A stretch of 64,000 nucleotides of DNA from Candidatus Nanoarchaeia archaeon (GTDB lineage: Bacteria; Patescibacteriota; Microgenomatia; Woykebacterales; RBG-16-39-9b), in contig DATBWR010000013.1 in the NCBI GenBank assembly GCA_036514715.1, positions 6,779 through 70,778 on the forward strand. Direction: 5' to 3'. The translations under genes and the position numbers were made by a program. This document shows positions 9,036 through 62,930 of this stretch, piece after piece. The notes below the pieces were generated by a model, which was not told where the DNA came from, did no database searches, and saw only the letters and a list, made by a program, of their open reading frames with translations. Each line of letters begins with the position of its first letter. Position 1 is the first letter of the stretch.

Positions 9036-9053
9036 AATTTGTCGAATGGTAAG

Positions 9054-9077
9054 ATATATGAATGATCATTCATATAT
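9054..9077. repeat. 24-bp perfect palindrome ATATATGAAT-GATC-ATTCATATAT (copy a of 4)
   Basis: Read directly; lies between convergent gene ends and overlaps the stop of 9066..9347. Confidence 0.8.
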
Positions 9078-9347
9078 CTTTCGCAAAAGAGGTCTTTCTT
9101 CAATATGAAAGTCGACCTGCTTAAAACCAGGGTGGAGATGTACAGTCAGGGCTTTATTTTTATAAATCTTGCCGAAACCATCTGGAGCTGGTTCTGTGAA
9201 GACTTCTGAAGAAAGGCGAATATATTTCACTCCTCGATCCTCGACATATCTCCCACCACAGATCTCACCAGCTTCCTCAAATGAGGACGCCAGGATAACA
9301 TAATAACCAACACCCATCATTCGATAAACAACGTACGCTTTCATCAC
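9066..9347 (-). CDS. Hypothetical small protein
   Basis: 93-aa ORF, no family recognised. Confidence 0.35.
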   Translation of the reverse strand: MMKAYVVYRMMGVGYYVILASSFEEAGEICGGRYVEDRGVKYIRLSSEVFTEPAPDGFGKIYKNKALTVHLHPGFKQVDFHIEERPLLRKIYE

Positions 9348-9440
9348 TCTCTCCTTTTCTTGGCAAGAATCTTAGCACGAGGCTAAATGTAAATCAATTA
9401 TTCTGCTATAATACGCTCATGGCAAAAATAGCGGCCAATA

Positions 9441-9490
9441 GGTAGTTTCTGTGAAACTTAAATTTATTCAAATTACGGTCGATATTTTGC
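9441..9490 (+). promoter_or_regulatory. Conserved 5' leader module (hairpin AGUUUCUGUGAAACU ... UUACGGUCGA) upstream of hisS; copy 1 of 3
   Basis: ~45-nt block shared with rpmE and proS upstream regions. Preceded by an extended -10 (TGcTATAAT at ~9404-9412) and ends 7 nt before the hisS ATG. Confidence 0.55.
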
Positions 9491-9496
9491 AAAACT

Positions 9497-10711
9497 ATGA
9501 GCAAAATTGAGGGTAGGACGCCTAAGGGTTTTCGTGATTTTCTCGGAACCGAGGCGGCCAACCGGCAAGCAATTACAAATAAACTCTCCCAAACTTTTGA
9601 GCGGTTCGGTTTTGAACCGTTAATTACGCCTGCTTTGGAATATGCCGAAGTCCTCAAAGGCAAATATGGTGAGGAAGAAAAATTAATTTACGAATTTGAG
9701 GACCGCGGTGGTAGGCAAGTTGCTCTGCGTTACGATCAAACTGTTCCACTAGCCCGTGTGATCGCCGCCTACCCAAACCTACCCAAACCCTACAAACGCT
9801 ACCAAATCCAACCGGTGTGGAGAGCTGAAAACCCCCAAAAAGGTCGTTTCCGCGAGTTTGTACAGGCGGATATTGATACTATCGGTACAGCCTCGGCTTT
9901 GGCGGATGCGGAAACTATCGCCTGCACGGTTTCAGCAATGGAAGAACTTGGTTTCAAAAACTTTACCCTCAAGGTTAACGACCGGGAAATTTTTGCTGGG
10001 CTGCCAAATAGTGTCATCAGTGCCATTGATAAACTTCCAAAAATTGGCCGGGACGCTGTTATGCTTTTGCTAAAGAACCAAAATTACAGCGATTTTCAGG
10101 CCGAAGACATTCTTAAAAAAGTTACCGACAGTCCCCCAACTGCAAGAATAAACCAACTTTTTGACCTGCTTGCGAAATTTAAAATTAGCTCAGGTAGATA
10201 CGCTTTTGATCCCTCCCTTGCCCGCGGCTTGGATTATTACACTGGCCTGATTTTTGAACTTGAAGTTGAAGGCTACACTGCAGGATCCGTCGGCGGCGGC
10301 GGTCGCTACGACAAACTAATTGGCCAATTTAGCGAAACACCCCTACCAGCAGTCGGTTTTTCCTTTGGGTTAGATCGCATTATGGAAGCAGCCCAAGAAT
10401 TAAAACTTTTCCCAGCAAGATCAAGTCAAAGCCAAGTTTTAGTAACAATTTTTAGCCAAGATTTGCTTCCCCAATCCCTTGAGACCGCCTCTGCCTTGCG
10501 CAATGAAGGTATTAATACAGAAATCTACTTAGACCCAGAAAGCAAACTGGACAAGCAGCTAAAGTACGCGGACAGTAAAAACATTCCCTACGCTCTTCTG
10601 CTTGGACCCCAAGAACTTGAGAAAAAGGTGGTCACTCTTAAAGACCTTAAGAGCGGCGAACAAAAACAAATCAGACTTGCGCAGGTACGCTCGATAGTAG
10701 AAAATAAGTAA
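9497..10711 (+). CDS. hisS: Histidyl-tRNA synthetase
   Basis: 404 aa with class II motifs (GGGRYD) and HisRS anticodon-binding C-terminus. Confidence 0.85.
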   Translation: MSKIEGRTPKGFRDFLGTEAANRQAITNKLSQTFERFGFEPLITPALEYAEVLKGKYGEEEKLIYEFEDRGGRQVALRYDQTVPLARVIAAYPNLPKPYKRYQIQPVWRAENPQKGRFREFVQADIDTIGTASALADAETIACTVSAMEELGFKNFTLKVNDREIFAGLPNSVISAIDKLPKIGRDAVMLLLKNQNYSDFQAEDILKKVTDSPPTARINQLFDLLAKFKISSGRYAFDPSLARGLDYYTGLIFELEVEGYTAGSVGGGGRYDKLIGQFSETPLPAVGFSFGLDRIMEAAQELKLFPARSSQSQVLVTIFSQDLLPQSLETASALRNEGINTEIYLDPESKLDKQLKYADSKNIPYALLLGPQELEKKVVTLKDLKSGEQKQIRLAQVRSIVENK

Positions 10712-13005: not shown

Positions 13006-13062
13006 TTGGCTTGCTGGAAGCAAAACTTTATGCTAATATACTCACGTTTATATCGACCAAAA

Positions 13063-13104
13063 GGTAGTTTCTGAGAAACTTAAGATTTATTATATTACGG
13101 TCGA
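13063..13104 (+). promoter_or_regulatory. Conserved 5' leader module upstream of rpmE; copy 2 of 3, followed by a 34-nt GC-rich insertion
   Basis: GGTAGTTTCTGAGAAACTTAAGATTTATTATATTACGGTCGA. Upstream promoter TTGCTG-N17-TAATAT at ~13011-13039. Confidence 0.55.
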
Positions 13105-13161
13105 AGATAGCGAAGCTAGCGCAGGGCGCGAAGCGATCTATATTTTGTCTAAGAAGTCAAA

Positions 13162-13563
13162 ATGACCCAAAAGATTGAAACTATAATTGAAAAACCTGAG
13201 GTTGAGGTTCCTGAAACAGAAATTGCACCAGAAGAACAAACCCAGCAACCCAAAGCCAAACAAGCAAAAAGTGAGGCTTTCAAACCCTTGCCGTATTTTG
13301 AAAATGCGACTGTTACTTGTGCTTGCGGTAACACTTTTACTACCGGCTCAACCCGGGAAGAGATTCGCGTAGAGCTTTGCAGTAACTGTCATCCGTTCTT
13401 TACCGGCCAAGAAAAATTTGTTGACACCGAAGGCCGAGTTGAGCGTTTCAAGCGCCTTGTGTCTTCTAAAAAGGCCAGCAGACCCAAAGATAAGTTTGAG
13501 AAAAAAGAAGACGATCGCCCCAAGACTCTCAAAGAAATGCTCCAAGCCCTAGAAAAGCGCTAA
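13162..13563 (+). CDS. rpmE: Ribosomal protein L31 with N-terminal low-complexity extension
   Basis: Contains CxxC...[11 protein letters not shown], the L31 zinc-ribbon signature. Confidence 0.75.
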
Positions 13564-15976: not shown

Positions 15977-17962
15977 TTACCCTCTTTTACCTAAGTTGGT
16001 TAATAATAAAGAATAATCAACGCTGTTAACAACGCCGTCATAGTTGATATCGTAGAGAGCCTCTTCGTTGCTCATCCCGGCCGGAACCATTCTTTCAAGG
16101 TCAGTTTGATCAATCACGTTATCACCATTAAAGTCGCCCATCACAAAGGCTGCAACTGACGCTTTAGTATCGTTGGTGAAAGTAAAACCTAAAGCCTGCA
16201 TTAAGGAATTTTTCGCCCAAACTTTCAAGACGTAATTGGTGTTCTTTGCCAACTGACTGTTGGTCTTTAAGATTAGCGTCCCACCCTTGCTTTCCACTAT
16301 CGCTTTTTGGGAAAAAGCGGTTTGCTCTACTTTAATCGTCACTTCCATACCACCTTTCAGGAAGGGGTTTGGAGCAAAGGTAAGGGTAATATCGCTACTT
16401 GTGGCTTTCGGCGCAGTTGACCCGGGTGGCGTAACTTTAGGAGCCGAAGATTGCGAACCGCCCGTTCCACCGCTGGTTCCACCAGTCGAACCACCGGTTG
16501 ATCCTCCAGTCGAACCACCGGTTGAGCCCCCAGTCGAACCACCGGTTGAGCCCCCAGTGGAGCCTCCTCCAGAAGAACCGCCGCCGGAGCTAGAAACAGT
16601 ATAACTGGTAGTAGCCTGGTTATTGGAATCATTGCTTTCGGCGATTTGACAGTCAGCATCGACAAAAACCCTCCCCGTGTAAGTACCCGCTGAAGATGGG
16701 GCGGTGAAGCTCAAAGTGAAATTACCGGTTGAAACACCTGCTCCCAAAGAACTAAAGGAACGGGAAGCCTGACCGTTGGGTGTTAGACATGGAACACTTG
16801 AAGGTTGGTTGGAATAAACATCAACCCAAAAAGTCCCAGAAGCAGCTCCACTACCGTTGTTAACAATATTGACAGTGGCAGTTACCGTCTGTCCTGAAGT
16901 TGGGTTTGTAGGCGACAGAGTAAAATTACTAACCGCCAAATCTGGCTGTGATGGCGGAGGTGGGGGTGAGGAGACGTTAACGGTTACTGAGTCAGAAGCA
17001 CTTCCCCCCGAACCGCTACAGGCCAAAGTGTAGGTTCTGCTGGCCGTTAGACTACCGGTAGATTCAGATCCGCTTGTGCCTTTGGTCCCGGACCAACCAT
17101 TAGAAGCTGTACAAGAAGTGGCATTGGTTGAAACCCAAGAAAGAGTCGCACTGGTATTGTAACTAATGGTAATTGGGCCGTTAGAGTTATTAGCTTTAAG
17201 ATCCACTGTTGGTTGGGGAGGAGGCGGAGGTGGTGGGGAAGTCACGTTAACGGTTACCGAATCGGACGCACTCCCCCCTGAGCCGCTACAGGCCAAAGTG
17301 TAGGTTTTTGCCGAGGTGAGATTACTCGTAGATTGTGAACCGCTAGTTGCTTTAGACCCTGTCCAGCCGTTAGAGGCCGTACAACCAGTTGCATTACTCG
17401 AACTCCAGGAAAGAGTCGCACTGGTATTGTAACTAATGGTAATTGGGCCGTTAGAGTTATTAGCTTTAATATCCACTGTGGGTGGGTTACAGTTGGGAGT
17501 GGTAATTGTAGGGGCAGCCGGGTAAGCAAGAGAGCCGCCGTTGGGATCGGAATTAAGATAGGCGTAAATTCTCCACCAGTAAGTGTAGCTGTCTTGCGGA
17601 GTTGCCCCGCCAATTGGGTTGTCCCTGTCCCAAATGAACCATTCTTGGGGAACAGGAAGGTAAAGGTTCCACCAGAGACCATCGTCAGCAAAACTTGAGT
17701 TGACATCAATGTCAATGTAACTACCGTCAGCGTAAGGCGGGTTCCAATCCCAAAAAAAGGTTACGCGCGGATCTCCTTGATAACAACTAGTGGTGTAAAC
17801 ATAAAGGTCAGTGGGTACGGGTGAGGAGGCTTGGGAACGAGTGTCTCTTGAAGTTAGAGCAGCGTATTGAGTAGCAGCAATGGCGGTGAAAAGCAAGACA
17901 GTTAAAACTAGAGAGAACCAGGTTGACCGGCTTAGTTTAATCTTCTTCAAGGAAAAAGACAT
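15977..17962 (-). CDS. Secreted surface protein: two tandem ~88-aa repeats, CARDB-like domain, Gly/Ser/Thr linker, C-terminal dockerin
   Basis: Dockerin duplicated Ca-binding segments GDFNGDNVIDQTD and YDINYDGVVNSVDYSLL; CARDB-like DLAVSNFTLSPTNPTSGQTVTATVNIVNNG; poly-Pro linkers. Confidence 0.6.
   Translation of the reverse strand: MSFSLKKIKLSRSTWFSLVLTVLLFTAIAATQYAALTSRDTRSQASSPVPTDLYVYTTSCYQGDPRVTFFWDWNPPYADGSYIDIDVNSSFADDGLWWNLYLPVPQEWFIWDRDNPIGGATPQDSYTYWWRIYAYLNSDPNGGSLAYPAAPTITTPNCNPPTVDIKANNSNGPITISYNTSATLSWSSSNATGCTASNGWTGSKATSGSQSTSNLTSAKTYTLACSGSGGSASDSVTVNVTSPPPPPPPQPTVDLKANNSNGPITISYNTSATLSWVSTNATSCTASNGWSGTKGTSGSESTGSLTASRTYTLACSGSGGSASDSVTVNVSSPPPPPSQPDLAVSNFTLSPTNPTSGQTVTATVNIVNNGSGAASGTFWVDVYSNQPSSVPCLTPNGQASRSFSSLGAGVSTGNFTLSFTAPSSAGTYTGRVFVDADCQIAESNDSNNQATTSYTVSSSGGGSSGGGSTGGSTGGSTGGSTGGSTGGSTGGSTGGTSGGTGGSQSSAPKVTPPGSTAPKATSSDITLTFAPNPFLKGGMEVTIKVEQTAFSQKAIVESKGGTLILKTNSQLAKNTNYVLKVWAKNSLMQALGFTFTNDTKASVAAFVMGDFNGDNVIDQTDLERMVPAGMSNEEALYDINYDGVVNSVDYSLLLTNLGKRG
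16470..16580. repeat. 12/24-bp coding tandem repeat encoding (GGST)n linker
   Basis: CCAGTCGAACCACCGGTTGAGCCC repeated about four times. Confidence 0.7.
16948..17476. repeat. Two ~264-bp intragenic direct repeats (~85% identical) within 15977..17962
   Basis: Duplicated DNA blocks encoding the two TVDIKANNSNGPITISYNTSATLSW... modules. Confidence 0.7.
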
Positions 17963-21238: not shown

Positions 21239-21359
21239 CTTCCTGCTCCTCTCATTTCTTTTAGGATTTTTGGTTGTTAAGAATGCTTGAGGGCTCTTGC
21301 AAAATGCAAGACAATCCTAGTCTAACACAAATTAGCAAGAAATTTTCTTGATAGAGAAG

Positions 21360-21383
21360 ATATATGAATAGTTATTCATATAT
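21360..21383. repeat. 24-bp palindrome ATATATGAAT-AGTT-ATTCATATAT (copy b)
   Basis: Read directly; intergenic between ctpA end and purC start. Confidence 0.8.
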
Positions 21384-21439
21384 TTTTAAGAAAAAAGCCT
21401 GCTCTTTCATACTTCATCCTTCGCACTTCTTACTTAATT

Positions 21440-25975: not shown

Positions 25976-26223
25976 AAGTTTGAAAAGGCAATTTCGTTTG
26001 CGAGTATAGCATAACATACTGCAAGCGACAAGCACGTTTGTGTGTAAACTAAAAATTCAAAGTTACGATAAGAATCGTTGCATTCGCTAACGCGAAAGTC
26101 AAAAGTAAACCTTGACTTCGTCAACGACTGCTTTTGACTAAGAAGTCAAAAGTTAAAAGTTTGCAAATCCTTCTACAACAAGCTATTATTGAGCCAATTC
26201 AAAACCAAGAAAGGCAGGGAGAA

Positions 26224-26649
26224 ATGGTCAATACTCAGCTCTTACGAGCTGCCTTAAAAGAGTGGCCAGACGAGCTCATCGCTGATCACTTCAAAGCGTG
26301 GAGAGTGGGAGGTTACCGCTACTGCGTAGTTGGCTGGCTTCACGAGTTCGCGCGCCGGCACGGCCGTTGTACACATCCGCCGAAAGAACGCCGCAGAGCA
26401 TTAGAGGTCGCAGCTACACAAAGGTGTATAGCCAAAGCCTTCGGTCTCCATGTCCACACGGTCCGAAGCTTGATGCACTACAACGACGACTACAAAGGCA
26501 AAAACCGTGGTCGAAGCTTGGCAATGTGGTGGCGGGTCGAAGCTGCTCTCCAGAGGTACATCCAAACCTACGTAAGCAAGCAAGCAGGCCAAGTGTTAGT
26601 ATCCACTGGCTTTGGGAGCGAAGAGGAGAAAGAACTGGTCACCGTCTAG
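26224..26649 (+). CDS. Hypothetical protein, high-GC island gene
   Basis: ~142 aa from Met at 26224 (RBS GGCAGGGAGAA); the AT-rich N-terminal extension in the ORF track is rejected; GC ~55%. Confidence 0.45.
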   Translation: MVNTQLLRAALKEWPDELIADHFKAWRVGGYRYCVVGWLHEFARRHGRCTHPPKERRRALEVAATQRCIAKAFGLHVHTVRSLMHYNDDYKGKNRGRSLAMWWRVEAALQRYIQTYVSKQAGQVLVSTGFGSEEEKELVTV

Positions 26650-27334: not shown

Positions 27335-27519
27335 ATCCGCCCTTTGGATTAGTCACCGTTAAAATGGGGTCCCCTTTGTGGAGTTGGCGTTTTTAAACTT
27401 GCAAAAAAGCAAGAGGAAGCGGTTCCCGAGGATGTCCCGATGATTTTTTGCTTAGTTTAACAGCCAACGCAGCAGGGGTGTCCTTTCTTGGCTACTTCTT
27501 TGGACAAGCAAAGAAGTAG
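27333..27519 (+). ncRNA. Candidate novel structured RNA, copy 1 of 2 (paralog at 49319..49509)
   Basis: ~85% identity to copy 2, invariant 33-nt core, compensatory substitutions in three helices, U-G wobbles valid only on the + strand. Confidence 0.5.
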
Positions 27520-33519: not shown

Positions 33520-34116
33520 CTAACTAAAAAGGGCTATAGATAAGGCAATTACTGACACAAAAAGGCTGTAAAAACCCATTCTTGATGAGCTTATCTCATA
33601 CAACTTTCTATTACAAATATCGGCAAGTCTGTTTTCTAAAGAGGATAGGTACATTAGTTCGTCAGATAAAGCTTCTATCTCCGCCTGTTTTTCACTTATG
33701 TGTGTGGCAAGCATACACGCTTGGAATTCAGCTATATCGTCATGTAAATCCTTTAAGTCTAGTTGAAACCCATCAAGTTTTACTAAAATAATCTTTAAAG
33801 TACCTTCGCTATTTAGTACATAAAAAGATGAGCTTGCGTATCTTGCTTCATCATATAATGTTCTCAGTTGACTGGTTAGTTTGCTCGAAGCACTATATAA
33901 CTCACTAGCCCACACAAGATACTTTGAGAAGTCCCTAAATTTATCCAGTTTGGATGGATCGTGGTGATATTTTTTTGGAGCATCAAATCCGTCTACACGA
34001 GCTTCTGAGTTACCTTCTATTGCTTCATAGGCTGCGTTAAAAGCTTGATGCTTGATGTATATACGGCTTTTCCCCATTAAAGCAGGAATTTTACTTTTTT
34101 CTGGCTTGGAAAGCAA
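33520..34116 (-). CDS. Hypothetical protein with C-terminal TM anchor
   Basis: 198 aa, no family; adjacent to the TA island. Confidence 0.4.
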   Translation of the reverse strand: MLSKPEKSKIPALMGKSRIYIKHQAFNAAYEAIEGNSEARVDGFDAPKKYHHDPSKLDKFRDFSKYLVWASELYSASSKLTSQLRTLYDEARYASSSFYVLNSEGTLKIILVKLDGFQLDLKDLHDDIAEFQACMLATHISEKQAEIEALSDELMYLSSLENRLADICNRKLYEISSSRMGFYSLFVSVIALSIALFS

Positions 34117-34130
34117 TTTTTGGGAGTAGA

Positions 34131-34355
34131 CTACTTTATTTTGAGGAACTCTTCAACTGTCAGACCGCTCTGGCTTATAATCGAGCGCAAAGTCCCTGTT
34201 TTCAAATCTTTGGTGTGAAACGGAATTGGGATACGGGCTCTGGTTTTTGGGTTAAGCAAAAGGTAATGACTACCGGAAATATGGTCAACAATAAAACCGA
34301 TTTTCTTAAGTTTAGAAATTACTTCACGAGGTTTTTGTGGGGAAAGCTTGGGCAT
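34131..34355 (-). CDS. hicA: HicA-family mRNA interferase toxin
   Basis: GSH...KDLKTGTLRSIISQSGL signature; 74 aa. Confidence 0.7.
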   Translation of the reverse strand: MPKLSPQKPREVISKLKKIGFIVDHISGSHYLLLNPKTRARIPIPFHTKDLKTGTLRSIISQSGLTVEEFLKIK

Positions 34356-34580
34356 CTAAACTGAGACGGAGACCTTCTCTATTTCAGCGGTATCAGTTGG
34401 AATATTCTCACCGTGTTTTTTCAGAGAGGCAATATAGACTGAAATTGCATCTTTAATCATTTCTAGTGCTTCTTGCCGACTCTCGCCTTGAGTAACACAA
34501 CCCGCCAGTGCCGGCGCGGAGACAACATATCCACCATCAGGAGCTTTTTGTAAGTAAACCGTGTAGTTCAAGACTTTCAT
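34356..34580 (-). CDS. hicB: HicB-family antitoxin (UPF0150)
   Basis: MKVLNYTVYLQKAPDGGYVVSAPALAGCVTQGESRQEALEMIKDAI. The ORF-track start at 34613 is possible; I chose the internal Met. Confidence 0.6.
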   Translation of the reverse strand: MKVLNYTVYLQKAPDGGYVVSAPALAGCVTQGESRQEALEMIKDAISVYIASLKKHGENIPTDTAEIEKVSVSV

Positions 34581-34702
34581 GGTGAAACTATAACAAATAC
34601 CAAGTACTTCCACAAGAGAAGATAGTTCTCTAATCTTCCTGCCTCAGAAAGCAAATTTTAGAAACTTTACTTAACTGGGGTTGGATGTTAAGATAACCCC
34701 AA

Positions 34703-34936
34703 ATGGAGCATCTTCAGGTTATCCGCAATGGAATAGTTTTTGAGTTAGAACCGGAAAAGGAAGGCGGCTTCACTATTACCGTCCCTTCTCTACCCGGCTG
34801 TATTTCCTACGGAAAAACTATTGATGAAGCTCTAGAGCAAATAAAAGACGCCATGGCTGGTTGGGTCGAGGTTGCTAAAGAAGAAGGAATCGATATTCCA
34901 GATGAGGTTGAAAAATCTCTACTTGTTACTCGTTGA
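34703..34936 (+). CDS. hicB: HicB-family antitoxin (UPF0150)
   Basis: GGFTITVPSLPGCISYGKTIDEALEQIKDAM. Confidence 0.7.
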   Translation: MEHLQVIRNGIVFELEPEKEGGFTITVPSLPGCISYGKTIDEALEQIKDAMAGWVEVAKEEGIDIPDEVEKSLLVTR

Positions 34937-35164
34937 ATGAAACTAACCCCAATCAAACCAAAAGTGATGGTTATTATCCTGCAAAAAGCAGGATTTTCTA
35001 TACGTAAACAGACTGGTTCTCACACTATTTTGTTTAAGAAGGGGGTTCGCAGACCAATCTCCGTAGCTATACATCCCCGTGATTTACCTTCTGGAACTCA
35101 AAGGGCAATCCTGCGCCAGGCAGAAATTTCAATTGACGAGTTTAACAAATTAATTAAAGAATAA
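34937..35164 (+). CDS. hicA: HicA-family toxin
   Basis: KQTGSHTILFKKG...IHPRDLPSGTQRAILRQAEI. Confidence 0.7.
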   Translation: MKLTPIKPKVMVIILQKAGFSIRKQTGSHTILFKKGVRRPISVAIHPRDLPSGTQRAILRQAEISIDEFNKLIKE

Positions 35165-35236
35165 AGTCTTAACTACTTTTTCCTGCCTAGGAAAGCAAAT
35201 TTAGTTTTTAGAAATTTATGCCATAATATACGCACA

Positions 35237-35518
35237 GTGAAAGTTGTTTATACCGACCACTTAGTCGAGCGTATAGAATTAAGAGGGATCCCTTACAATT
35301 TACCGAAAGATGTTTATCAAGGTCGTGAAGAGGTTTTCTTTGATACTCAAACAAATCATTTTGTGGCCTTGAGTAAAAAAGAGTATTTTGGTAAACTCAG
35401 AACAGTTGTTGTTCCATTTGACAAATTTTCTGATAGAATCAAGCTGGTTACTATTCATCCGATTGAAGAAAAGGACAAAACACAAAGAATAAAATCTGGA
35501 AGGTGGATAAGCAGATGA
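35237..35518 (+). CDS. DUF4258-like toxin-like protein
   Basis: HLVERIELRGI N-terminus; co-occurs with the downstream DUF2283. Confidence 0.4.
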   Translation: MKVVYTDHLVERIELRGIPYNLPKDVYQGREEVFFDTQTNHFVALSKKEYFGKLRTVVVPFDKFSDRIKLVTIHPIEEKDKTQRIKSGRWISR

Positions 35519-35727
35519 AAAAACCAAAAATTTCTTACGACAAAAAAGCAGATGTTCTTTACTTCTTTCTTAAAGAAGGTTCCGAAGAGGAATACAAAGA
35601 AATCGCACCAGGCGTAGGTTTAGAGTTAGACAAAAAGGGTGCCCTACTTGGTGTAGAGATACTTAATGCCTCAAAAGTTTTAGGTGCCAAACCTAAGATT
35701 AAAGAAAAAATCCTTGAATCTGCATAG
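35503..35727 (+). CDS. DUF2283 family protein (antitoxin-like partner)
   Basis: KISYDKKADVLYFFL...GVGLELDKKGALLGVEILNASKVL. Confidence 0.55.
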   Translation: MDKQMKKPKISYDKKADVLYFFLKEGSEEEYKEIAPGVGLELDKKGALLGVEILNASKVLGAKPKIKEKILESA

Positions 35728-35825
35728 GAACTAAATTTCTTAAACAAGCTTCAAAATCCTTCCTCAAAAAGTTAAAGAAACAGTTTTCCAATAACATTTT
35801 CCTGGCTCGGAAAGCAAATTGTTAA

Positions 35826-35849
35826 ATATATGAATACTTATTCATATAT
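35826..35849. repeat. 24-bp palindrome ATATATGAAT-ACTT-ATTCATATAT (copy c)
   Basis: Read directly; between convergent gene ends, immediately after a GGAAAGCAAATT repeat copy. Confidence 0.8.
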
Positions 35850-35866
35850 TTGTTGGGAAAAGAAAT

Positions 35867-36157
35867 CTACAATTCGAGGAGGAAAACAGGAGCGGCGGCG
35901 GCAAGAAAGGCAGCAATTTGGGCTGCTAGGATAATTAAAGCTTGTTTTGGCTTCTGTGGTAAATAGACGACTGCAAAAAAAGCTATAACGAACACTTGGC
36001 CAACCATAAATAACTGCCAGATATGGGCAGCTCCTCCCTCATCTCCAGAGGGGTCTGGACCAAAGACTAAAAGCCAAATCCACGGCAGAGTTAAAGCTCC
36101 CACAGACATAACAATTGGAAGAGAGGCCAAAGGCTTTTTGATTAAAGTAAAATCCAC
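35867..36157 (-). CDS. Small membrane protein
   Basis: 96 aa with 3 TM helices. Confidence 0.4.
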   Translation of the reverse strand: MDFTLIKKPLASLPIVMSVGALTLPWIWLLVFGPDPSGDEGGAAHIWQLFMVGQVFVIAFFAVVYLPQKPKQALIILAAQIAAFLAAAAPVFLLEL

Positions 36158-36248
36158 GAGCTTATTTTACCACTATTGCGGATTCAAATTCTGGCAAAAA
36201 GAAAAGCGACTTGTTACCAAGCCGCTCAGGACATTCAACGACTATAGG

Positions 36249-36277
36249 TTGACATTTAAACCTATTTGTGCTACACT
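36249..36277 (+). promoter_or_regulatory. Promoter TTGACA-N17-TACACT with inverted repeat ATAGGTT/AACCTAT flanking the -35
   Basis: Read directly; followed by RBS AAGGAGGG and the ATG at 36304. Confidence 0.5.
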
Positions 36278-36303
36278 TGCCGCAACCAAAAAGGAGGGAA
36301 ATC

Positions 36304-36681
36304 ATGCCTGTAATCGAGGTACGCCTTGGCGAGGCTTTCGCCAAGAGCATTGGTGTGGCAAACCGCACCAGTCTCAGTTACGAGTGGAGGCAGATCGTCA
36401 GCGAGGCCTTCGAGGCACCCATCGAATCCGTCGCCTGTCAGTGGCACCCTTGGTTCGACTCACAGAACACGGAGGGTATCGAGATCCTCGTCCACTTCTC
36501 CGCAGCCGATCCAGTAACGACCGTTGCACGTATCGACCGGGTTAGAAAAGCTCTTGCAGAATCCATACAGCGGAGCACATTCTTACCACCGGGAACCGAG
36601 GTTGGAATCTGGCCGGATCCAAAGCCTTATACTAGTTACAGCTCATGCCGCGTTGGAGAGCCAAGCCCCATAGGACCTTGA
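36304..36681 (+). CDS. Hypothetical protein, high-GC island gene (MPVIEVRL N-terminus, weakly tautomerase-like)
   Basis: Start at the Met following the strong RBS; the ORF track starts at 36268. Confidence 0.4.
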   Translation: MPVIEVRLGEAFAKSIGVANRTSLSYEWRQIVSEAFEAPIESVACQWHPWFDSQNTEGIEILVHFSAADPVTTVARIDRVRKALAESIQRSTFLPPGTEVGIWPDPKPYTSYSSCRVGEPSPIGP

Positions 36682-36723
36682 AATCTTTCAAGGTCCTTTT
36701 CTTTTTCCAAAACAAATTTAAAA

Positions 36724-37092
36724 TTAGCTTTGCTGGGGTTTTTGCTGGCTAGCTAAAAACGTGGGGATGGCGACTGTTAAAACGTACGGAATGTAGGATT
36801 TCCAATCAGAAAAATAGTCTTTACCGGCAAAGGGAACAGTCAAAACAAGATCAAGAACAAAAAAGATGACTAACCACACAAGGCCGAATTTCAAGCCTTG
36901 CCGCCAATTTTCCGGCTTAGCATAATTGGTGGCGATGTACAAACCAACAATTGAGATGCCAAGGTTAACTATCCAAACCCAAATTGCTTCCGCATCAATT
37001 TTGGCGCCGATAAGCGCCGAAATAAAAAGAAAGATAACTGCGTAAAGGGCTAGGGGTGGAATGAGAAATTTTTTCCAATCTTTAACATTCAT
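36724..37092 (-). CDS. Membrane protein
   Basis: 122 aa with 4 TM helices. Confidence 0.45.
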   Translation of the reverse strand: MNVKDWKKFLIPPLALYAVIFLFISALIGAKIDAEAIWVWIVNLGISIVGLYIATNYAKPENWRQGLKFGLVWLVIFFVLDLVLTVPFAGKDYFSDWKSYIPYVLTVAIPTFLASQQKPQQS

Positions 37093-37165
37093 AAAATAAG
37101 TATAACTTTACAAGCTGAGTGGTTCAAGATGTTTTTCTTCCTCGGAAAGCAGCTTTCTCTTGTTT

Positions 37166-46507: not shown

Positions 46508-47899
46508 TTAGATAATCTTTTTTAATTTGGGTCCGGCCGGGTCATCAATAACTTCGTAACCAATTTCGGCAATCTGCTTGCGGATTTCGTCACTCTTTAC
46601 GAAGTCTTTATCTTTCCGCGCTTTTTCCCTTTCAGAAACTAAATTCTCGACCTCGGCCGAAACTTTAATTCTAGCTTGGTTTTCCAAATCAAGACCTAAA
46701 ACTTGGTCAAACTTTAATAAACTTTTCAACTTGGCACTGTCTGGGTAGTCGCTTTTGACCAGCTCCCAAACTATCGCTAAAGCCTTAGGCGTATCTAAAT
46801 CGTCATTAATTGCTTCAAGAAAGCGGCTTTCGAACTCTGCACAACCAATTCTAGCTTCGCCTTGGTAGCCGGAAACTTCGCGGTAAAGGTTTTTCAAGGC
46901 GGTTTCGGCTGCTTTCAAAGCTTCCCAGGTAAAATTTAAACGCGTGCTATAATGGGCGGTTAGGACTAGATAACGAAACGCCAACGGATCAACACCTTTG
47001 GCTTCAAGGTCGGCCAAACGGTAAAAATTGCCCAACGACTTAGACATTTTTTCATTTTCAACCAGTAAGTGTTCCCCCTCTAACCAAAACCTGACGAACT
47101 GTTTGCCGGAAGAAGCCTCACTTTGAGCTATTTCATTGGTATGATGGACTGGTATGTGGTCCACCCCACCAGTGTGGATATCGAAGCTTTCTCCCAAATA
47201 TTTCATACTCATCGCCGAGCATTCAATATGCCAACCGGGGAAACCTTTACCCCAAGGACTTTCCCATTCCATCTGCCGTTTCTCACCTATCGGCGAGAAT
47301 TTCCACAGGGCAAAATCAGTTGGATGTTTTTTGCCGGGAACCATTTCAACCCGGGCGCCGGCTCTCAAATTCTTCTGCATGTCCTCCCATGTTTGGCCGG
47401 TCAGTTCTCCGTATTTTGGAAACTTTGAAGTGTCAAAATAAATCCCATCGGCGAGTTTATAAGTAAAGCCTTTTTCTTCTAAAGTTTTGATCAATTCGAT
47501 CATTTCTTTAATATGGTCAGTGGCTTTAGGAACAATTTCCGGCTTTTTGATGTTTAGAGCTTCAATCATGTCAAAAAAGTCTTTAGTGTAAAAATCGGCA
47601 ATTTCCCAAACTGTTTTTTTCTCCCTCTCTGCACCCTTTTCCATCTTGTCTTCGCCGGTGTCTGAGTCACTGGTTAAATGGCCAACGTCAGTGATGTTCA
47701 TCACTCTTTTTACAACAAGGGCGTTGTACTCCAAAGTTCTTTGCAGAATATCGGCGAATATATAGGTCCGAGCGTGGCCAATATGGGCATAGTCGTAAAC
47801 AGTTGGTCCACAAGTGTAAATACCCACCTGACCAGAAGTAATTGGTGTAAATTTTTCCTTTTTGCGGGTCAAAACATTATTCAAGAAAATTTCAGCCAT
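46508..47899 (-). CDS. cysS: Cysteinyl-tRNA synthetase
   Basis: HIGH (HIGHARTY) and KMSKS motifs, Zn-binding Cys residues. Confidence 0.9.
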
Positions 47900-47988
47900 G
47901 AGAAAATTATAGCAGAAAATAATTGCTTTTCTTGACTTTCAGGCTCCAAGAGGTAAAATACAGGCAAATTAAAGAAGGGAAGAGAATC

Positions 47989-49318: not shown

Positions 49319-49509
49319 CAAAACCGCCCTCGCCGAGCATGTATTTTTTGGGGTCCCTTTTGTGGAGCGAGCGTCTTTGAACTAGCAAAAATTCGAGAGG
49401 AAGCGGTTCCCGAGGATGTCCCGATGAATTTTTGCTAAAGCTTCAACAGCTCGCGCAACAGGGGTGTCCTTTTCTTGGAAACTTCTTTTGGACAAGCAAA
49501 AGAGGTTTC
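49319..49509 (+). ncRNA. Candidate novel structured RNA, copy 2 of 2 (paralog at 27333..27519)
   Basis: See copy 1; the 3' hairpin overlaps the stop codon of the convergent gene 49508..49945. Confidence 0.5.
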
Positions 49510-51168: not shown

Positions 51169-51305
51169 TTAAATAATTCTACCAATAACAAAGCCTACTG
51201 TCACCCCCTCCAACAATACTAATATAATGTATATATTAGTATTTATTGATCTGCGGAAAAATTTTCCCAAAGAAAAACGCCTCAAGCCAGTAAAAGGCTA
51301 AGGCG

Positions 51306-57519: not shown

Positions 57520-57565
57520 CTTCTTAAGATTAGCTTCTTGTTTAGTTTTTTTCAATCTCTGACAA

Positions 57566-57589
57566 ATATATGAATGTTTATTCATATAT
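57566..57589. repeat. 24-bp palindrome ATATATGAAT-GTTT-ATTCATATAT (copy d)
   Basis: Read directly; in the divergent intergenic region upstream of pth. Confidence 0.8.
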
Positions 57590-57672
57590 CTTTAGATACT
57601 ATGGGATTTACTTTTGCTTGGTTGTATGTTATTATTGCCTTAATAAACAGGAAGAAAGTAGGAGGGTAAAGA

Positions 57673-61112: not shown

Positions 61113-61522
61113 TAAAAATTTCCTGAAGAAAGTTTTGCCCGTGCCTGAGTGTTAGTTTTAGCTTTTAGTGCAGTTTCAACAAATCTTAGTAATTTGCTCG
61201 TCTTATCTTTATTTGAAAACTTTGCTGTCTTGGACAAGAATTTGCTGAATTCATCTGAGGAATCTAAATAGTTCTTAGCTTGTCGAAAGGTTTCGTAACT
61301 GACTTTTAAGGCCTCTTTAACTTCTGTTTCTGAATACCCACCTACAATCATTAAATAAAGACCCAATCTTTTGGCCAACATTCCTTTTTCTTCTTTAGTG
61401 AGAAAACGTTGCAAAAAATCTTCAATCTGAGCTTGATTACTGGAAGCTAAAACTTGAGCAAATGTTTCATTAACCTGATTCCAAACGGACTTCTTTAATG
61501 GTGTCTTTGAAACCCTCGTCAT
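61112..61522 (-). CDS. Putative TrpR/YerC-like small DNA-binding protein
   Basis: Start at internal MTRVSK; helical protein with KEEKGMLAKRLGLYLMIVGGYSETEV segment; weak family assignment. Confidence 0.35.
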   Translation of the reverse strand: MTRVSKTPLKKSVWNQVNETFAQVLASSNQAQIEDFLQRFLTKEEKGMLAKRLGLYLMIVGGYSETEVKEALKVSYETFRQAKNYLDSSDEFSKFLSKTAKFSNKDKTSKLLRFVETALKAKTNTQARAKLSSGNF

Positions 61523-61606
61523 AATTACTAATATAATTATTATATTAGTATTAGTCAACTGTAGAGTTTTGTTAATTTAGACTAATAATCAAGCTATTTA
61601 CTTAAA

Positions 61607-62821
61607 CTATATAGAGGTAATTTTTACGAGTTTTGTAGATTCCTCACCGCGGTTTTTGACTTCAATTGCTTCTTCTTTAAGAGATTTTTCGCTGACGATC
61701 CAGCGCTCAGGTATACCAATCAGGTCACTGTCGGCAAGTTTTTCACCGGCACTCATTTGTCTGTCGTCAAACAAAACTTCAGTACCTTTTTTCAAAAGCT
61801 TTTCATAAATTTCTTCAGAGGCTTTCGTAACTTCTTTTTCTCCACCTAAAGAAAGTAAGTGGACCGCAAACGGAGCAACACTCTCAGGCCAAACAATGCC
61901 TTTTTCATCGTTAAAAACTTCAACAATTGTGGCCAGCAACCGCCCCAAACCAATTCCGTAGCAACCCATTAAAATTGGCTTTTCGGTTCCGTCGGCTTCC
62001 ACAAAGTTTGCACCCATGGCCTCAGAATACTTGGCTCCCAGTTGAAAAACTTGTCCGGCCTCGACCGCTTGAATCTGCTCAAATTTACCCTTTTTACCCT
62101 CAGAAATTTCTTCAAGTAAGTCTTTATTATAAGCTTCACCGTTTTCATCCGAGACGTAGACAGTATCTTCTCCAACTTTAGTCGGTACTTGAAATTCGTA
62201 AGTAACACTTCCGCCGATCGTCCCACCAGAGGCTTTGGCGATAATCGGTTTTAGATTTACACGAGCAAAGATTTTCTCATACGCACTAACAACTTTCTCA
62301 AAAAAGTTGTCTAAATCCTCTTGAGTTGCGTGGAAACTGTAAAGATCTTTCATGGAAAATTCTCGCACGCGCAATAAACCACCGGTAGAACGCACTTCGT
62401 TGCGGAATTTAGTTTGGATTTGGTAAAGGGAGAACGGCAGGTCTTTGTAGCTTTGGACCCGTCTGCGCACAAGGTCAGTGATTACTTCTTCATGAGTTGG
62501 CCCTAAAGCAATTTCTTTGTCGTGCCGGTCTTTGAATTTAAATAAAGGTGGGTCAATCGTGGTCCAACGGCCAGTCTCCTCCCACAAATTCTTTGGGGAT
62601 AAAGCTGGCATCAAAATTTCCTGGCCGCCGAGAGCGTTCATCTCATGCCGAATAATGTTTTCAATTTTCTTGAGGACGCGCAAGCCTAAAGGCAAAAAAG
62701 TGTAAACCCCGCTCATCAACTGGTCGATAAAGCCACCGCGAACTAAATATTGGTGGGAAATCGCCGTTGCCTCGGCTGGAGCCTGCCGAGAAGTTTTTCC
62801 AAAAAGGCTGCCTTGTCTCAT
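61607..62821 (-). CDS. proS: Prolyl-tRNA synthetase, compact form without the INS editing domain
   Basis: N-terminus aligns with bacterial ProRS (…HQYLVRGGFIDQ..GVYTFLPLGLRVLKKIENIIR…LGPTHEEVITDLVR…LYQIQTKFRNEVR…); 404 aa. Confidence 0.85.
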   Translation of the reverse strand: MRQGSLFGKTSRQAPAEATAISHQYLVRGGFIDQLMSGVYTFLPLGLRVLKKIENIIRHEMNALGGQEILMPALSPKNLWEETGRWTTIDPPLFKFKDRHDKEIALGPTHEEVITDLVRRRVQSYKDLPFSLYQIQTKFRNEVRSTGGLLRVREFSMKDLYSFHATQEDLDNFFEKVVSAYEKIFARVNLKPIIAKASGGTIGGSVTYEFQVPTKVGEDTVYVSDENGEAYNKDLLEEISEGKKGKFEQIQAVEAGQVFQLGAKYSEAMGANFVEADGTEKPILMGCYGIGLGRLLATIVEVFNDEKGIVWPESVAPFAVHLLSLGGEKEVTKASEEIYEKLLKKGTEVLFDDRQMSAGEKLADSDLIGIPERWIVSEKSLKEEAIEVKNRGEESTKLVKITSI

Positions 62822-62833
62822 TTTTGATTCTTA

Positions 62834-62879
62834 TCGAAAATATCGACCGTAATATTAATTAATAGTTTCTCAGAAACAA
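62834..62879 (-). promoter_or_regulatory. Conserved 5' leader module upstream of proS; copy 3 of 3
   Basis: Reverse complement reads GTTGTTTCTGAGAAACTATTAATTAATATTACGGTCGATATTTTCG. Confidence 0.55.
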
Positions 62880-62901
62880 CATTCTGGTCGTTATAGTGGA
62901 A

Positions 62902-62930
62902 AGTATAAATTAGCGGGAATTAAGTATCAA
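62902..62930 (-). promoter_or_regulatory. Promoter TTGATA-N17-TATACT upstream of the proS leader
   Basis: Read on the reverse complement, in the rseP-proS intergenic region. Confidence 0.45.

What the first reader, a model, noticed from the sequence alone, without database searches (positions are those of the whole stretch)
9420..9496. Conserved hairpin-containing 5' leader module shared by hisS, rpmE and proS
A ~45-nt block is found three times: GGTAGTTTCTG(T/A)GAAACTTAA(-/G)ATTTATT..AATTACGGTCGA at 9441-9490 upstream of hisS, at 13063-13104 upstream of rpmE, and its reverse complement at 62834-62879 upstream of proS. Each lies downstream of a plausible sigma70-type promoter: extended -10 TGcTATAAT (~9404-9412), TTGCTG-N17-TAATAT (~13011-13039), and TTGATA-N17-TATACT (62902-62930, minus strand). 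Each ends 7-60 nt before the start codon, so it is most likely transcribed as a 5' UTR. It contains a perfect hairpin AGUUUC-UGN-GAAACU and the invariant UUACGGUCGA. In rpmE a 34-nt GC-rich insertion separates the block from the ATG, so its position relative to the start codon is not fixed. Flanking sequence can pair with GGUCGA(UA) in the rpmE and proS copies, enclosing the block. A shared cis element on two aminoacyl-tRNA synthetase genes and a ribosomal-protein gene suggests a regulon-level control element for translation genes, either an RNA leader/attenuator or a transcription-factor site. It is clearly not a T-box, being far too short.
Basis: seen in the sequence. Interest (0 to 1): 0.65.

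Follow-up and report, generated by a model that had tools for sequence, protein, structure and literature searches.

The report
Dispersed leader repeat inserted at start codons
The three look-alike blocks are real, but they are copies of a small repeat, specific to this lineage, that has been inserted exactly at the start codons of unrelated genes in an uncultured Patescibacteria (Woykebacteria-like) genome, turning leaderless genes into genes with a structured leader; they are not a control element for translation genes.

Summary
Observation confirmed. A covariance model finds exactly three copies in the window (71-85 bits; next best 13.6), ahead of hisS, rpmE and proS.

The translation-regulon reading is not supported:
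- Two more copies on a contig from the same sample set precede mreC and secE-nusG-rplK.
- Two related genomes carry one copy each, ahead of an M50 peptidase gene and a Wzy-type gene.
- cysS, efp, prfA, rpsB-tsf-frr, rpsU and pth in or next to the window lack it.
- Orthologous hisS, proS, rpmE, mreC and wzy sites in relatives are empty. They keep the same -10 box and are leaderless or nearly so (mreB-mreC: a 2-nt spacer).
- At hisS the ancestral start ATGGCAAAAAT survives upstream of the insert.

Each module has a 5-6-bp outer stem (P1), an inner hairpin (P2), an optional GC-rich hairpin (P3) and a tail hairpin that reaches the ATG. P1 and P2 show compensatory changes. No Rfam family matches.

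Best reading (0.6): a MITE/REP-like dispersed repeat, co-transcribed as a portable 5' leader. It has an unusual restriction: all 7 copies are sense-oriented and 6 of 7 end within 2 nt of the ATG. How it spreads and what it does to expression are unknown. Novelty: new variant of a known kind.

The parts
9404..9412 (+). hisS promoter, extended -10 TGcTATAAT, retained from the leaderless ancestor
   Evidence: Same box, followed by 6-7 nt and then ATG, in the hisS orthologs L010, L011 and L012. A near-identical arrangement drives leaderless cysS at 47917-47889 (I7).
9419..9445 (+). Remnant of the ancestral leaderless hisS start (ATGGCAAAAAT, 9419-9429). It now opens an 8-codon uORF that ends at UAG inside P2.
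   Evidence: Identical 11 nt begin hisS in the closest relative L010 (ATGGCAAAAATTGAAG). The present start ATGAGCAAAAT at 9497 is an imperfect duplicate of it.
9430..9496 (+). Copy c1 (short form): P1 9432-9436 with 9477-9481 (CGGCC/GGUCG, one G-U), P2 9445-9449 with 9453-9457, AU-rich joiner 9458-9476, tail TATTTTGCAAAACT 9483-9496
   Evidence: Model hit 9428-9486, 85.1 bits. Absent from orthologous sites. Identical in 9 assemblies.
9497..10711 (+). hisS
   Evidence: Pfam tRNA-synt_His plus HGTP_anticodon.
13011..13039 (+). rpmE promoter TTGCTG-N17-TAATAT
   Evidence: Aligns with TTGTCA-N17-TATGAT/TAATAT of L012 and L011, where ATG follows 11 nt after the -10 box.
13050..13161 (+). Copy c2 (long form): P1 13054-13058 with 13099-13103, P2 13067-13071 with 13075-13079, optional GC-rich hairpin P3 13105-13139, tail hairpin P4 13140-13161 (AUUUUG/CAAAAU around UAAGAAG) abutting the ATG
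   Evidence: Model hit 83.6-83.7 bits. About 93% identical to copy c4 on L031, including P3. Folds.
13162..13563 (+). rpmE (ribosomal protein L31)
   Evidence: Pfam Ribosomal_L31.
62902..62930 (-). proS promoter TTGATA-N17-TATACT
   Evidence: 10/12 match. The same TATACTttcc box is followed by ATG after 6-8 nt in the proS orthologs L051 and L052.
62822..62894 (-). Copy c3 (short form): P1 62890-62886 with 62848-62844, P2 62877-62873 with 62869-62865, tail hairpin 62842-62822 abutting the ATG
   Evidence: Model hit 62894-62839, 77.5 bits. The site is empty in relatives.
61607..62821 (-). proS
   Evidence: Pfam tRNA-synt_2b plus HGTP_anticodon. An identical protein is on record as proline--tRNA ligase.

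Best explanation
The block is one member of a small family of non-coding dispersed repeats, confined to this lineage. It is MITE/REP-like in behaviour: it has been copied into new loci, and it always lands at the start codon of a gene. Most of the hosts were previously leaderless genes, with the -10 box 6-11 nt before ATG or GTG.

Each copy is co-transcribed from the pre-existing promoter, or within the mreBC operon. It therefore converts a leaderless or tightly coupled gene into one with a 75-120-nt leader. The leader consists of a 5'-proximal outer stem P1 (5-6 bp, extendable by AUAU/AUAU), an inner hairpin P2, an AU-rich joiner, an optional GC-rich hairpin P3, and a tail hairpin P4. P4 shows an SD-like AAGA/AGGA in its loop and has the AU of the AUG in its stem.

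Shown: the copies, their positions, the empty orthologous sites, the retained promoters, the retained ancestral hisS start, and the compensatory changes in P1 and P2.

Inferred: that the element is mobile or duplicative rather than ancestral. Also inferred is that it persists at start codons because its tail supplies a workable translation-initiation region, and possibly a 5' stem that stabilises the mRNA. On this reading any effect on expression is generic, not a response to a specific signal. The copying mechanism is unknown.
For: (1) Copy number differs sharply between close genomes. This population has 5 copies in about 94 kb (window, its flanks, and L031). Four related genomes have 2 copies in about 101 kb.

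(2) No copy is at an orthologous site in another genome. Filled and empty pairs keep the same promoter:
- hisS: TATAAT-N6-ATGGCAAAAAT|78 nt|TGAGG against L010 TATAAT-N6-ATGGCAAAAATTGAAG.
- proS: TATACTttccact|module|ATG against TATACTttccccATG.
- mreB-mreC: 120 nt with the module against TAGtcATG in L054.
- wzy: TAAGATacttac|76 nt|ATGAAAATC in L054 against TAAGATatttacGTG in L050 and TAATATcaaaggGTG in L031.
- M50 peptidase gene: filled in L050, empty in L031, same TACAAT box.

(3) The host genes are unrelated in function: hisS, rpmE, proS, mreC, secE-nusG-rplK, an M50 peptidase gene and wzy. Other translation genes nearby lack the module.

(4) Copies within this genome are 80-93% identical. 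The family has long and short forms and two subfamilies. One copy (c7) has a decayed P2 and no fold stability (z = +1.0).

(5) The same genomes hold other small dispersed repeats. One of them fills the mreB-mreC spacer of L050, exactly where this genome has the module.

(6) No Rfam family matches at E <= 10.

(7) Prokaryotic MITEs are described as <500 bp, with TIRs of about 4-30 bp, AT-rich, forming stem-loops in transcripts. Correia elements sit mostly just upstream of genes (PMC10969869).
Against: No transposase or autonomous element with matching ends was seen in the roughly 94 kb available.

There is no consistent target-site duplication: only an AT dinucleotide on both sides of every copy, and an imperfect 11-nt duplication at hisS.

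All 7 copies are in sense orientation to the downstream gene, and 6 of 7 end within 2 nt of the ATG. The second repeat family in the same genome shows no such restriction. So either targeting or selection for a leader function is at work.

P1 and P2 keep pairing through changes on both sides (P1 pair 8-51: CG x4, GC x2, UA x1). One G-U pair works only in the sense RNA. This fits selection on RNA structure at least as well as it fits terminal inverted repeats.

Only 7 copies were found, from 3 genomes. L031 is assigned to the same population only by shared sample and a near-identical module.
Confidence: 0.6

Rival explanations
1. A dedicated cis-regulatory RNA leader (riboswitch-like or protein-binding). 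It would place a set of housekeeping genes under one signal, with P1/P2 as the sensor and the tail hairpin P4, or P3 plus the U-run, as the expression platform that hides or frees the AUG.
For: Sense orientation and 5' UTR position in 7 of 7 copies. P1 and P2 are 97% paired, with 4 of 10 pairs changed on both sides, against 31-48% paired for slid controls. One G-U pair is sense-specific. UAUUUU can pair either with the AAAAU(G) at the start codon or with upstream AAAAUA in c1. The c6 fold has z = -4.9.
Against: It is not conserved at any orthologous gene in relatives with 70-87% protein identity. The gene set has no common theme, and cysS, efp, prfA and other translation genes lack it. Fold stability of the window copies is ordinary (z = -1.5 to +0.2). 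The joiner varies in length and sequence. P2 has decayed in c7. P3 is optional. No Rfam match. The covariation comes from about two subfamily splits, and the alignment was fitted to the model.
Confidence: 0.2
2. A processing signal. The module would be cut off at or next to the AUG, by self-cleavage or by a host RNase such as RNase III acting on P1 or P4. That would regenerate a leaderless mRNA, which is why insertion is tolerated only at the start codon.
For: 6 of 7 copies end 0-2 nt before the ATG. Leaderless expression is the norm in this genome. Correia elements are cleaved by RNase III at their inverted repeats (PMC10969869; PMC2649163).
Against: No match to any known self-cleaving ribozyme family in Rfam. 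P1 is only 5-6 bp, which is short for an RNase III substrate. In c6 there are 59 nt of unrelated sequence between P1 and the ATG. No data on RNA ends.
Confidence: 0.08
3. A DNA operator. The GTTTC-N3-GAAAC palindrome would bind a dimeric transcription factor just downstream of the promoter.
For: A perfect 5-3-5 palindrome 25-40 nt downstream of the -10 box in c1-c3.
Against: In c5 and c6 both half-sites change together (AUUU/AAAU with a 4-nt loop), and in c7 the palindrome is lost. A protein reading bases would not tolerate this. Copy c4 lies inside the mreBC operon with no recognisable promoter. The conserved unit is far larger than an operator and is asymmetric.
Confidence: 0.03

Closest known systems
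Prokaryotic MITEs, in particular Neisseria Correia repeat-enclosed elements (CREE)
   Same: Short non-coding AT-rich dispersed repeat bounded by inverted repeats. It has long and short forms and presence/absence differences between related genomes. It sits mostly just upstream of genes, is co-transcribed, and is able to reshape the 5' UTR (PMC10969869 sections 2.1 and 4.1; PMC2649163).
   Different: The core is only about 56-59 nt with inverted repeats of 5-9 bp. There is no TA or other consistent target duplication, no internal promoter that I could find, and no known parent IS. It occurs in one orientation only, and 6 of 7 copies end within 2 nt of the start codon. Its inverted repeats covary instead of being sequence-conserved.
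REP/BIME elements and other hairpin repeats (ERIC, RUP, BOX, SPRITE, Rickettsia RPE)
   Same: Small structured extragenic palindromes present in many copies, transcribed with neighbouring genes. Their structure is maintained while the sequence drifts (PMC2229807 and PMC3049150, listed).
   Different: As I recall, REPs usually lie at gene 3' ends or between operon genes, occur in both orientations, and carry a conserved GTAG head tied to a RAYT transposase. Here the GTAG-like head is not conserved (GTAG, GTTG, GAAG, GTAA), and the position is the start codon. Orientation follows the gene, not the replication direction.
Riboswitch or protein-binding 5' leaders of aminoacyl-tRNA synthetase and ribosomal-protein genes (T-box, r-protein leaders)
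   Same: A structured 5' UTR ahead of hisS, proS and rpmE, with covarying helices and a hairpin that includes the start codon.
   Different: No Rfam match. Far too small for a T-box, and no specifier logic: the P2 loop is UGU for hisS and UGA for proS, rpmE and mreC alike. It is not conserved at orthologous genes, and it is also present ahead of mreC, secE, an M50 peptidase gene and wzy.

Membership tests
Prokaryotic MITE | Short (<500 bp) non-coding, AT-rich unit | tested here: met
   67-112 nt, 29-38% GC in the core, no conserved ORF. Definition from PMC10969869.
Prokaryotic MITE | Terminal inverted repeats of about 4-30 bp | tested here: met
   (AUAU)CGACC...GGUCG(AUAU) bounds the core in all 7 copies, 97% paired. 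However, the conserved tail lies outside these repeats.
Prokaryotic MITE | Flanking direct repeats (target-site duplication) | tested here: inconclusive
   Every copy is flanked by AT...AT(G), which is too short to be meaningful. c1 has an imperfect 11-nt duplication, ATGGCAAAAAT/ATGAGCAAAAT. No fixed length.
Prokaryotic MITE | Multiple dispersed copies with presence/absence at orthologous sites | tested here: met
   7 copies at 7 non-orthologous loci in 3 genomes. 5 filled/empty pairs.
Prokaryotic MITE | Related autonomous IS or transposase able to mobilise it | tested here: inconclusive
   No transposase domain among the genes called in most of the roughly 94 kb examined. The rest of the genome could not be reached.
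REP / RAYT system | Imperfect palindrome with a conserved GTAG-type head, both orientations, mostly at gene 3' ends, with a RAYT gene | tested here: not met
   The head varies (GTAG, GTTG, GAAG, GTAA). All copies are in sense orientation at gene 5' ends. Orientation does not follow the replichore. No RAYT seen.
Known cis-regulatory RNA family (Rfam, including T-box and r-protein leaders) | Match to a curated covariance model | tested here: not met
   At the gathering threshold only tRNA-Leu matched. At E <= 10 the modules gave chance hits only.
Riboswitch-like regulatory leader (generic) | Conservation upstream of orthologous genes across related genomes, with a coherent gene set | tested here: not met
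   hisS, rpmE, proS, mreC and wzy orthologs are empty. The gene set is heterogeneous.
Riboswitch-like regulatory leader (generic) | Helices supported by covariation | tested here: met
   4 of 10 pairs changed on both sides. 0 of 500 shuffles reach the covariation score. Slid controls pair at 31-48%. Caveat: 7 related sequences, and the alignment was fitted to the model.
Transcription-factor operator | Sequence-conserved half-sites | tested here: not met
   The half-sites change together in c5 and c6 and are lost in c7.

The most novel reading that the evidence does not exclude
A non-autonomous element whose insertion specificity is the translation start itself. On this reading it integrates at the AT|G of a start codon, leaderless or not, and brings a ready-made structured 5' UTR with its own SD-like hairpin and ATG. 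It would be a mobile 'leader cassette' that rewires leaderless genes into leadered ones. Two points fit a junction formed by microhomology or duplication at the gene start: the 11-nt duplication at hisS, and the repeated resemblance between the module's 5' end and the first codons of the host gene.
Probability: 0.25. Interest if true: 0.8.

Novelty: new variant of a known kind. Interest (0 to 1): 0.5.

Why it matters
Small dispersed repeats are barely described in Patescibacteria/CPR; two literature searches found nothing relevant. These genomes are tiny and compact and, as this window shows, rely heavily on leaderless mRNAs.

An element that lands at start codons and swaps leaderless initiation for a structured, SD-bearing leader would be a simple route by which expression of essential genes is rewired between close lineages. 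It would also give a natural set of matched pairs for studying leaderless versus leadered translation: the same gene and the same promoter, with and without the leader.

It is also a caution for motif-based regulon prediction. A shared 5' motif on two aaRS genes and a ribosomal-protein gene arose here by copying, not by common regulation.

Tried and rejected
- Known RNA families: Rfam at the gathering threshold on the whole window and at E <= 10 on two modules gave nothing relevant.
- T-box: rejected on size and because the P2 loop does not track the amino acid.
- Exact-pattern scan of 185,579 species genomes: only 2 chance hits, in Verrucomicrobiia and Terriglobia, with no similarity outside the pattern.
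- Metagenome scan: 19 hits, of which only L031 is real.
- Two viral scans: nothing, or chance hits only.
- Internal promoter in the module (TATATT of the tail with a -35 in P3): no acceptable -35, and the spacing differs between the long and short forms.
- P3 plus the U-run as an intrinsic terminator: not called by the scan.
- Conserved leader peptide: only c1, c3 and c6 have a short ORF, and the three are unrelated.
- Replication-strand bias, as for IS200/IS605 or REP elements, as the cause of the uniform orientation: GC skew is negative in 15 of 16 bins, so c1/c2 and c3 face opposite ways relative to replication.
- Population polymorphism: all assemblies from at least 5 samples are identical across the three modules.
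- More copies in the window flanks: none.
- Tail motif or P3 occurring on its own in the window: only one tail-like hairpin, at 26132-26152.
- Reaching more of this genome: the exact MreB of L031 was not returned by the protein search, so its longer contig could not be fetched.

Full report
**1.

The three stretches were read directly. GTTTCTGNGAAAC and TTACGGTCGA each occur exactly three times, at the stated places. A covariance model built from the three copies (A2, R1) scores them 77.5-85.1 bits. The next best hit in the 64-kb window, both strands, filters off, is 13.6 bits. Pfam confirms that the downstream genes are hisS (9497-10711), rpmE/L31 (13162-13563) and proS (61607-62821, minus strand).

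It starts at ATA(N)CGRCC and runs through GGTCGA. It then continues as TATTTTS-(loop)-CAAAA up to the ATG.

**2. Anatomy**

- P1 is an outer stem: CGACC/GGUCG. In the hisS copy it is CGGCC/GGUCG with one G-U pair.
- P1 encloses an 8-nt purine-rich joiner (AAAGGUA), the hairpin P2 (GUUUC-UGN-GAAAC) and a 15-19-nt AU-rich joiner.
- After P1 there is an optional GC-rich hairpin P3 (AGAU...AUCU, 35 nt in rpmE).
- A tail follows in which AUUUUG pairs with CAAAAU, so the AU of the start codon lies in the stem and an SD-like AAGA/AGGA lies in the loop.

Predicted stability of the window copies is ordinary (z = -1.5 to +0.2).

**3. Organism and more copies**

HisS, MreB and ProS homologs place the window in Patescibacteria, near Candidatus Woykebacteria. 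The contig recurs identically in several ENA, JGI and Logan assemblies.

- An exact-pattern scan of species-representative genomes gave only two chance hits.
- The metagenome scan gave one real locus, L031, from one of the same samples. It carries two further copies:
  - c4 (L031:11641-11698, 64-74 bits) lies in the 120-nt spacer between mreB and mreC. It is about 93% identical to the rpmE copy, including P3.
It has its own version of P3.
- A second model (R2) found one copy in each of two related genomes:
  - c6 is ahead of a small M50 peptidase gene in GCA_034680565.1 (L050:1772-1718).
  - c7 is ahead of a Wzy-type gene in GCA_964442195.1 (L054:1729-1672).
- No further copies were found in the window flanks or in L010, L011, L012, L051 and L052.

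In total this population has 5 copies in about 94 kb. Four relatives have 2 copies in about 101 kb.

**4. The module is an insertion at start codons of formerly leaderless genes**

- **hisS.** In relatives with 70-76% HisS identity, hisS is leaderless. L010 reads TATAATtcccacATGGCAAAAATTGAAG, and L011 and L012 are likewise leaderless. The window keeps TGcTATAAT-acgctc-ATGGCAAAAAT. Then come 78 nt that end in a second, imperfect copy of the start (ATGAGCAAAAT), and then TGAGG. The old start now opens an 8-codon uORF (9419-9445).
- **proS.** Relatives read TATACTttccccATG (L051) and TATACTtttcccaaATG (L052). The window reads TATACTttccact, then the module, then ATG.
- **rpmE.** Relatives have the aligned promoter and ATG 11 nt after the -10 box. 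The window has the module after the same promoter.
- **mreB-mreC.** L054 has TAG-tc-ATG. This genome has 120 nt containing the module. L050 has 196 nt occupied by a different repeat.
- **wzy.** L054 reads TAAGATacttac | 76-nt module | ATGAAAATC. L050 (TAAGATatttacGTG) and L031 (TAATATcaaaggGTG) are leaderless and empty.
- **M50 peptidase gene.** Filled in L050 and empty in L031, with the same TACAAT box.

Leaderless arrangements are common in the window. cysS, for example, reads ctgcTATAATtttctcATG.

**5. It is not a translation regulon**

The hosts are hisS, rpmE, proS, mreC, secE-nusG-rplK, an M50 peptidase gene and wzy. In or beside the window, cysS, efp, prfA, rpsB-tsf-frr, rpsU, pth and ychF have no copy. 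No Rfam family matches.

**6. Structure evidence**

On the 7-copy alignment (A8), 97% of cells pair. Four of the 10 pairs change on both sides:
- P1 pair 8-51 is CG x4, GC x2, UA x1.
- P1 pair 7-52 is AU x3, CG x2, GU x1, with one mismatch.
- The outer P2 pair is GC x4, AU x2.

None of 500 shuffles reaches the covariation score, and slid controls pair at 31-48% (6-copy version).

Caveats: the sequences are few and related, the changes trace to about two subfamily splits, and the alignment was fitted to the model.

Co-variation of both arms argues against a base-reading protein, whether a transcription factor or a classical transposase acting on inverted repeats. It fits a hairpin requirement in RNA or in single-stranded DNA. 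Copy c7 has lost P2 and folds no better than shuffled sequence (z = +1.0). Copy c6 folds very well (z = -4.9).

**7. Position and orientation**

All seven copies are in sense orientation to the downstream gene. Six end 0-2 nt before the ATG; c6 has 59 unrelated nt in between.

GC skew is negative in 15 of 16 bins, so the window is a single replichore. c1 and c2 (+ strand) and c3 (- strand) therefore differ in orientation relative to replication. Orientation follows transcription.

A second repeat family in the same genome (27365-27500 and 49349-49480; the third copy is in L050) is not tied to gene starts or to orientation. Lack of intergenic space alone therefore does not explain the restriction.

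**8. Interpretation**

The turnover between close genomes, the empty orthologous sites with conserved promoters, the retained ancestral start, the unrelated host genes, the long and short forms, the decayed copy, and the company of other dispersed repeats all point one way. This is a MITE/REP-like dispersed repeat that is co-transcribed as a portable 5' leader (confidence 0.6).

Its strict start-codon, sense-strand placement and its covarying helices are not typical of MITEs. This leaves three possibilities:
- Real target specificity for translation starts (the novel reading, about 0.25).
- Selection, because the tail supplies an initiation region and the 5' stem may protect the mRNA.
- A genuine regulatory role (rival, 0.2).

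Removal of the leader by processing (0.08) and a DNA operator (0.03) are less likely.

**9. Comparison with known elements**

The closest analogues are Correia elements and other small structured repeats. These sit upstream of genes and alter 5' UTRs (PMC10969869; PMC2649163, PMC2229807 and PMC3049150).

Membership in the MITE class is not established. Size, inverted repeats and presence/absence polymorphism are met. Target duplication and a parent transposase are unresolved. REP, T-box/Rfam and operator memberships each fail on a tested defining feature.

**10. Unexplained**

The 5' end of the module repeatedly resembles the first codons of its host gene:
- c1: ATGGCAAAAAT against ATGAGCAAAAT.
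- c2: AT(ATC)GACCAAAAG against ATGACCCAAAAG.
- c3: ATAACGACCA against the ancestral ATGCGACAAT.
- c4: TTGAAGTTT against ATGAAGTTC, the mreC start in L054.

Part of this is module sequence shared with other copies (GAAGTTTAT is also in c6). It could therefore be chance in A-rich sequence, or it could be a trace of a microhomology-based junction.

Noticed in passing
window 27365-27500 and 49349-49480; L050:11054-11249: A second dispersed non-coding repeat family of about 125-170 nt (88% identity over 88 nt between the two window copies). A third copy fills the mreB-mreC spacer of relative GCA_034680565.1, exactly where this genome has module copy c4. No Rfam hit. It is not tied to gene starts.
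   Followed up: partly
window 9051-9082, 21357-21391, 35826-35861, 57558-57592: Four copies of an AT-rich perfect palindrome, AAGATATATGAATnnTTATTCATATATCTT. Two of them lie between convergent genes. It could be a shared terminator or a protein site.
   Followed up: no
window 34093-37155: Five copies of ACTTTTTCCTGnCTnGGAAAGCAAATT, spaced 0.5-1.3 kb apart, among small genes that include two adjacent hicAB toxin-antitoxin pairs (34131-35164).
   Followed up: no
window 26132-26152: An isolated hairpin, TTTTGACTAAGAAGTCAAAAG. It matches 19 of 21 nt of the module tail hairpin of the rpmE copy, but has no core, and lies in the intergenic region 26036-26224.
   Followed up: partly
window 9419-9445: The retained ancestral leaderless hisS start now opens an 8-codon uORF (MAKIAANR) that stops at UAG inside P2. 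If the transcript still starts at 9419, ribosomes would translate through the 5' strand of P1.
   Followed up: partly
window-wide, e.g. 47899-47917 (cysS), 49945, 51168, 37092, 60089: Many genes have a -10 box 6-9 nt before ATG, so they are probably leaderless. A minority have clear GGAGG Shine-Dalgarno sites (25603, 51843, 57673).
   Followed up: partly
window 15977-17962 (minus-strand ORF, 661 aa, no Pfam): Internal repeats: seven 12-nt-phased copies at 16455-16574, and a 264-nt duplication at 16953-17486. This points to a repetitive, probably surface, protein.
   Followed up: no
window 51215-51246 and 61521-61552: Two copies of another AT-rich palindrome, ACTAATATAATnnATATATTAGTATT.
   Followed up: no
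window 61607-62821 (ProS): The identical ProS protein is recorded in NCBI as 'MAG TPA: proline--tRNA ligase [Candidatus Nanoarchaeia archaeon]' on a contig of 166 kb. All close homologs are Patescibacteria/Woykebacteria, so the MAG label looks like a binning or taxonomy error.
   Followed up: no
c1-c4 5' junctions (window 9419-9436, 13050-13064, 62894-62884; L031:11632-11649): The 5' end of each module resembles the first codons of its host gene. This is unexplained: it may be chance in A-rich sequence or a trace of microhomology at the junction.
   Followed up: partly
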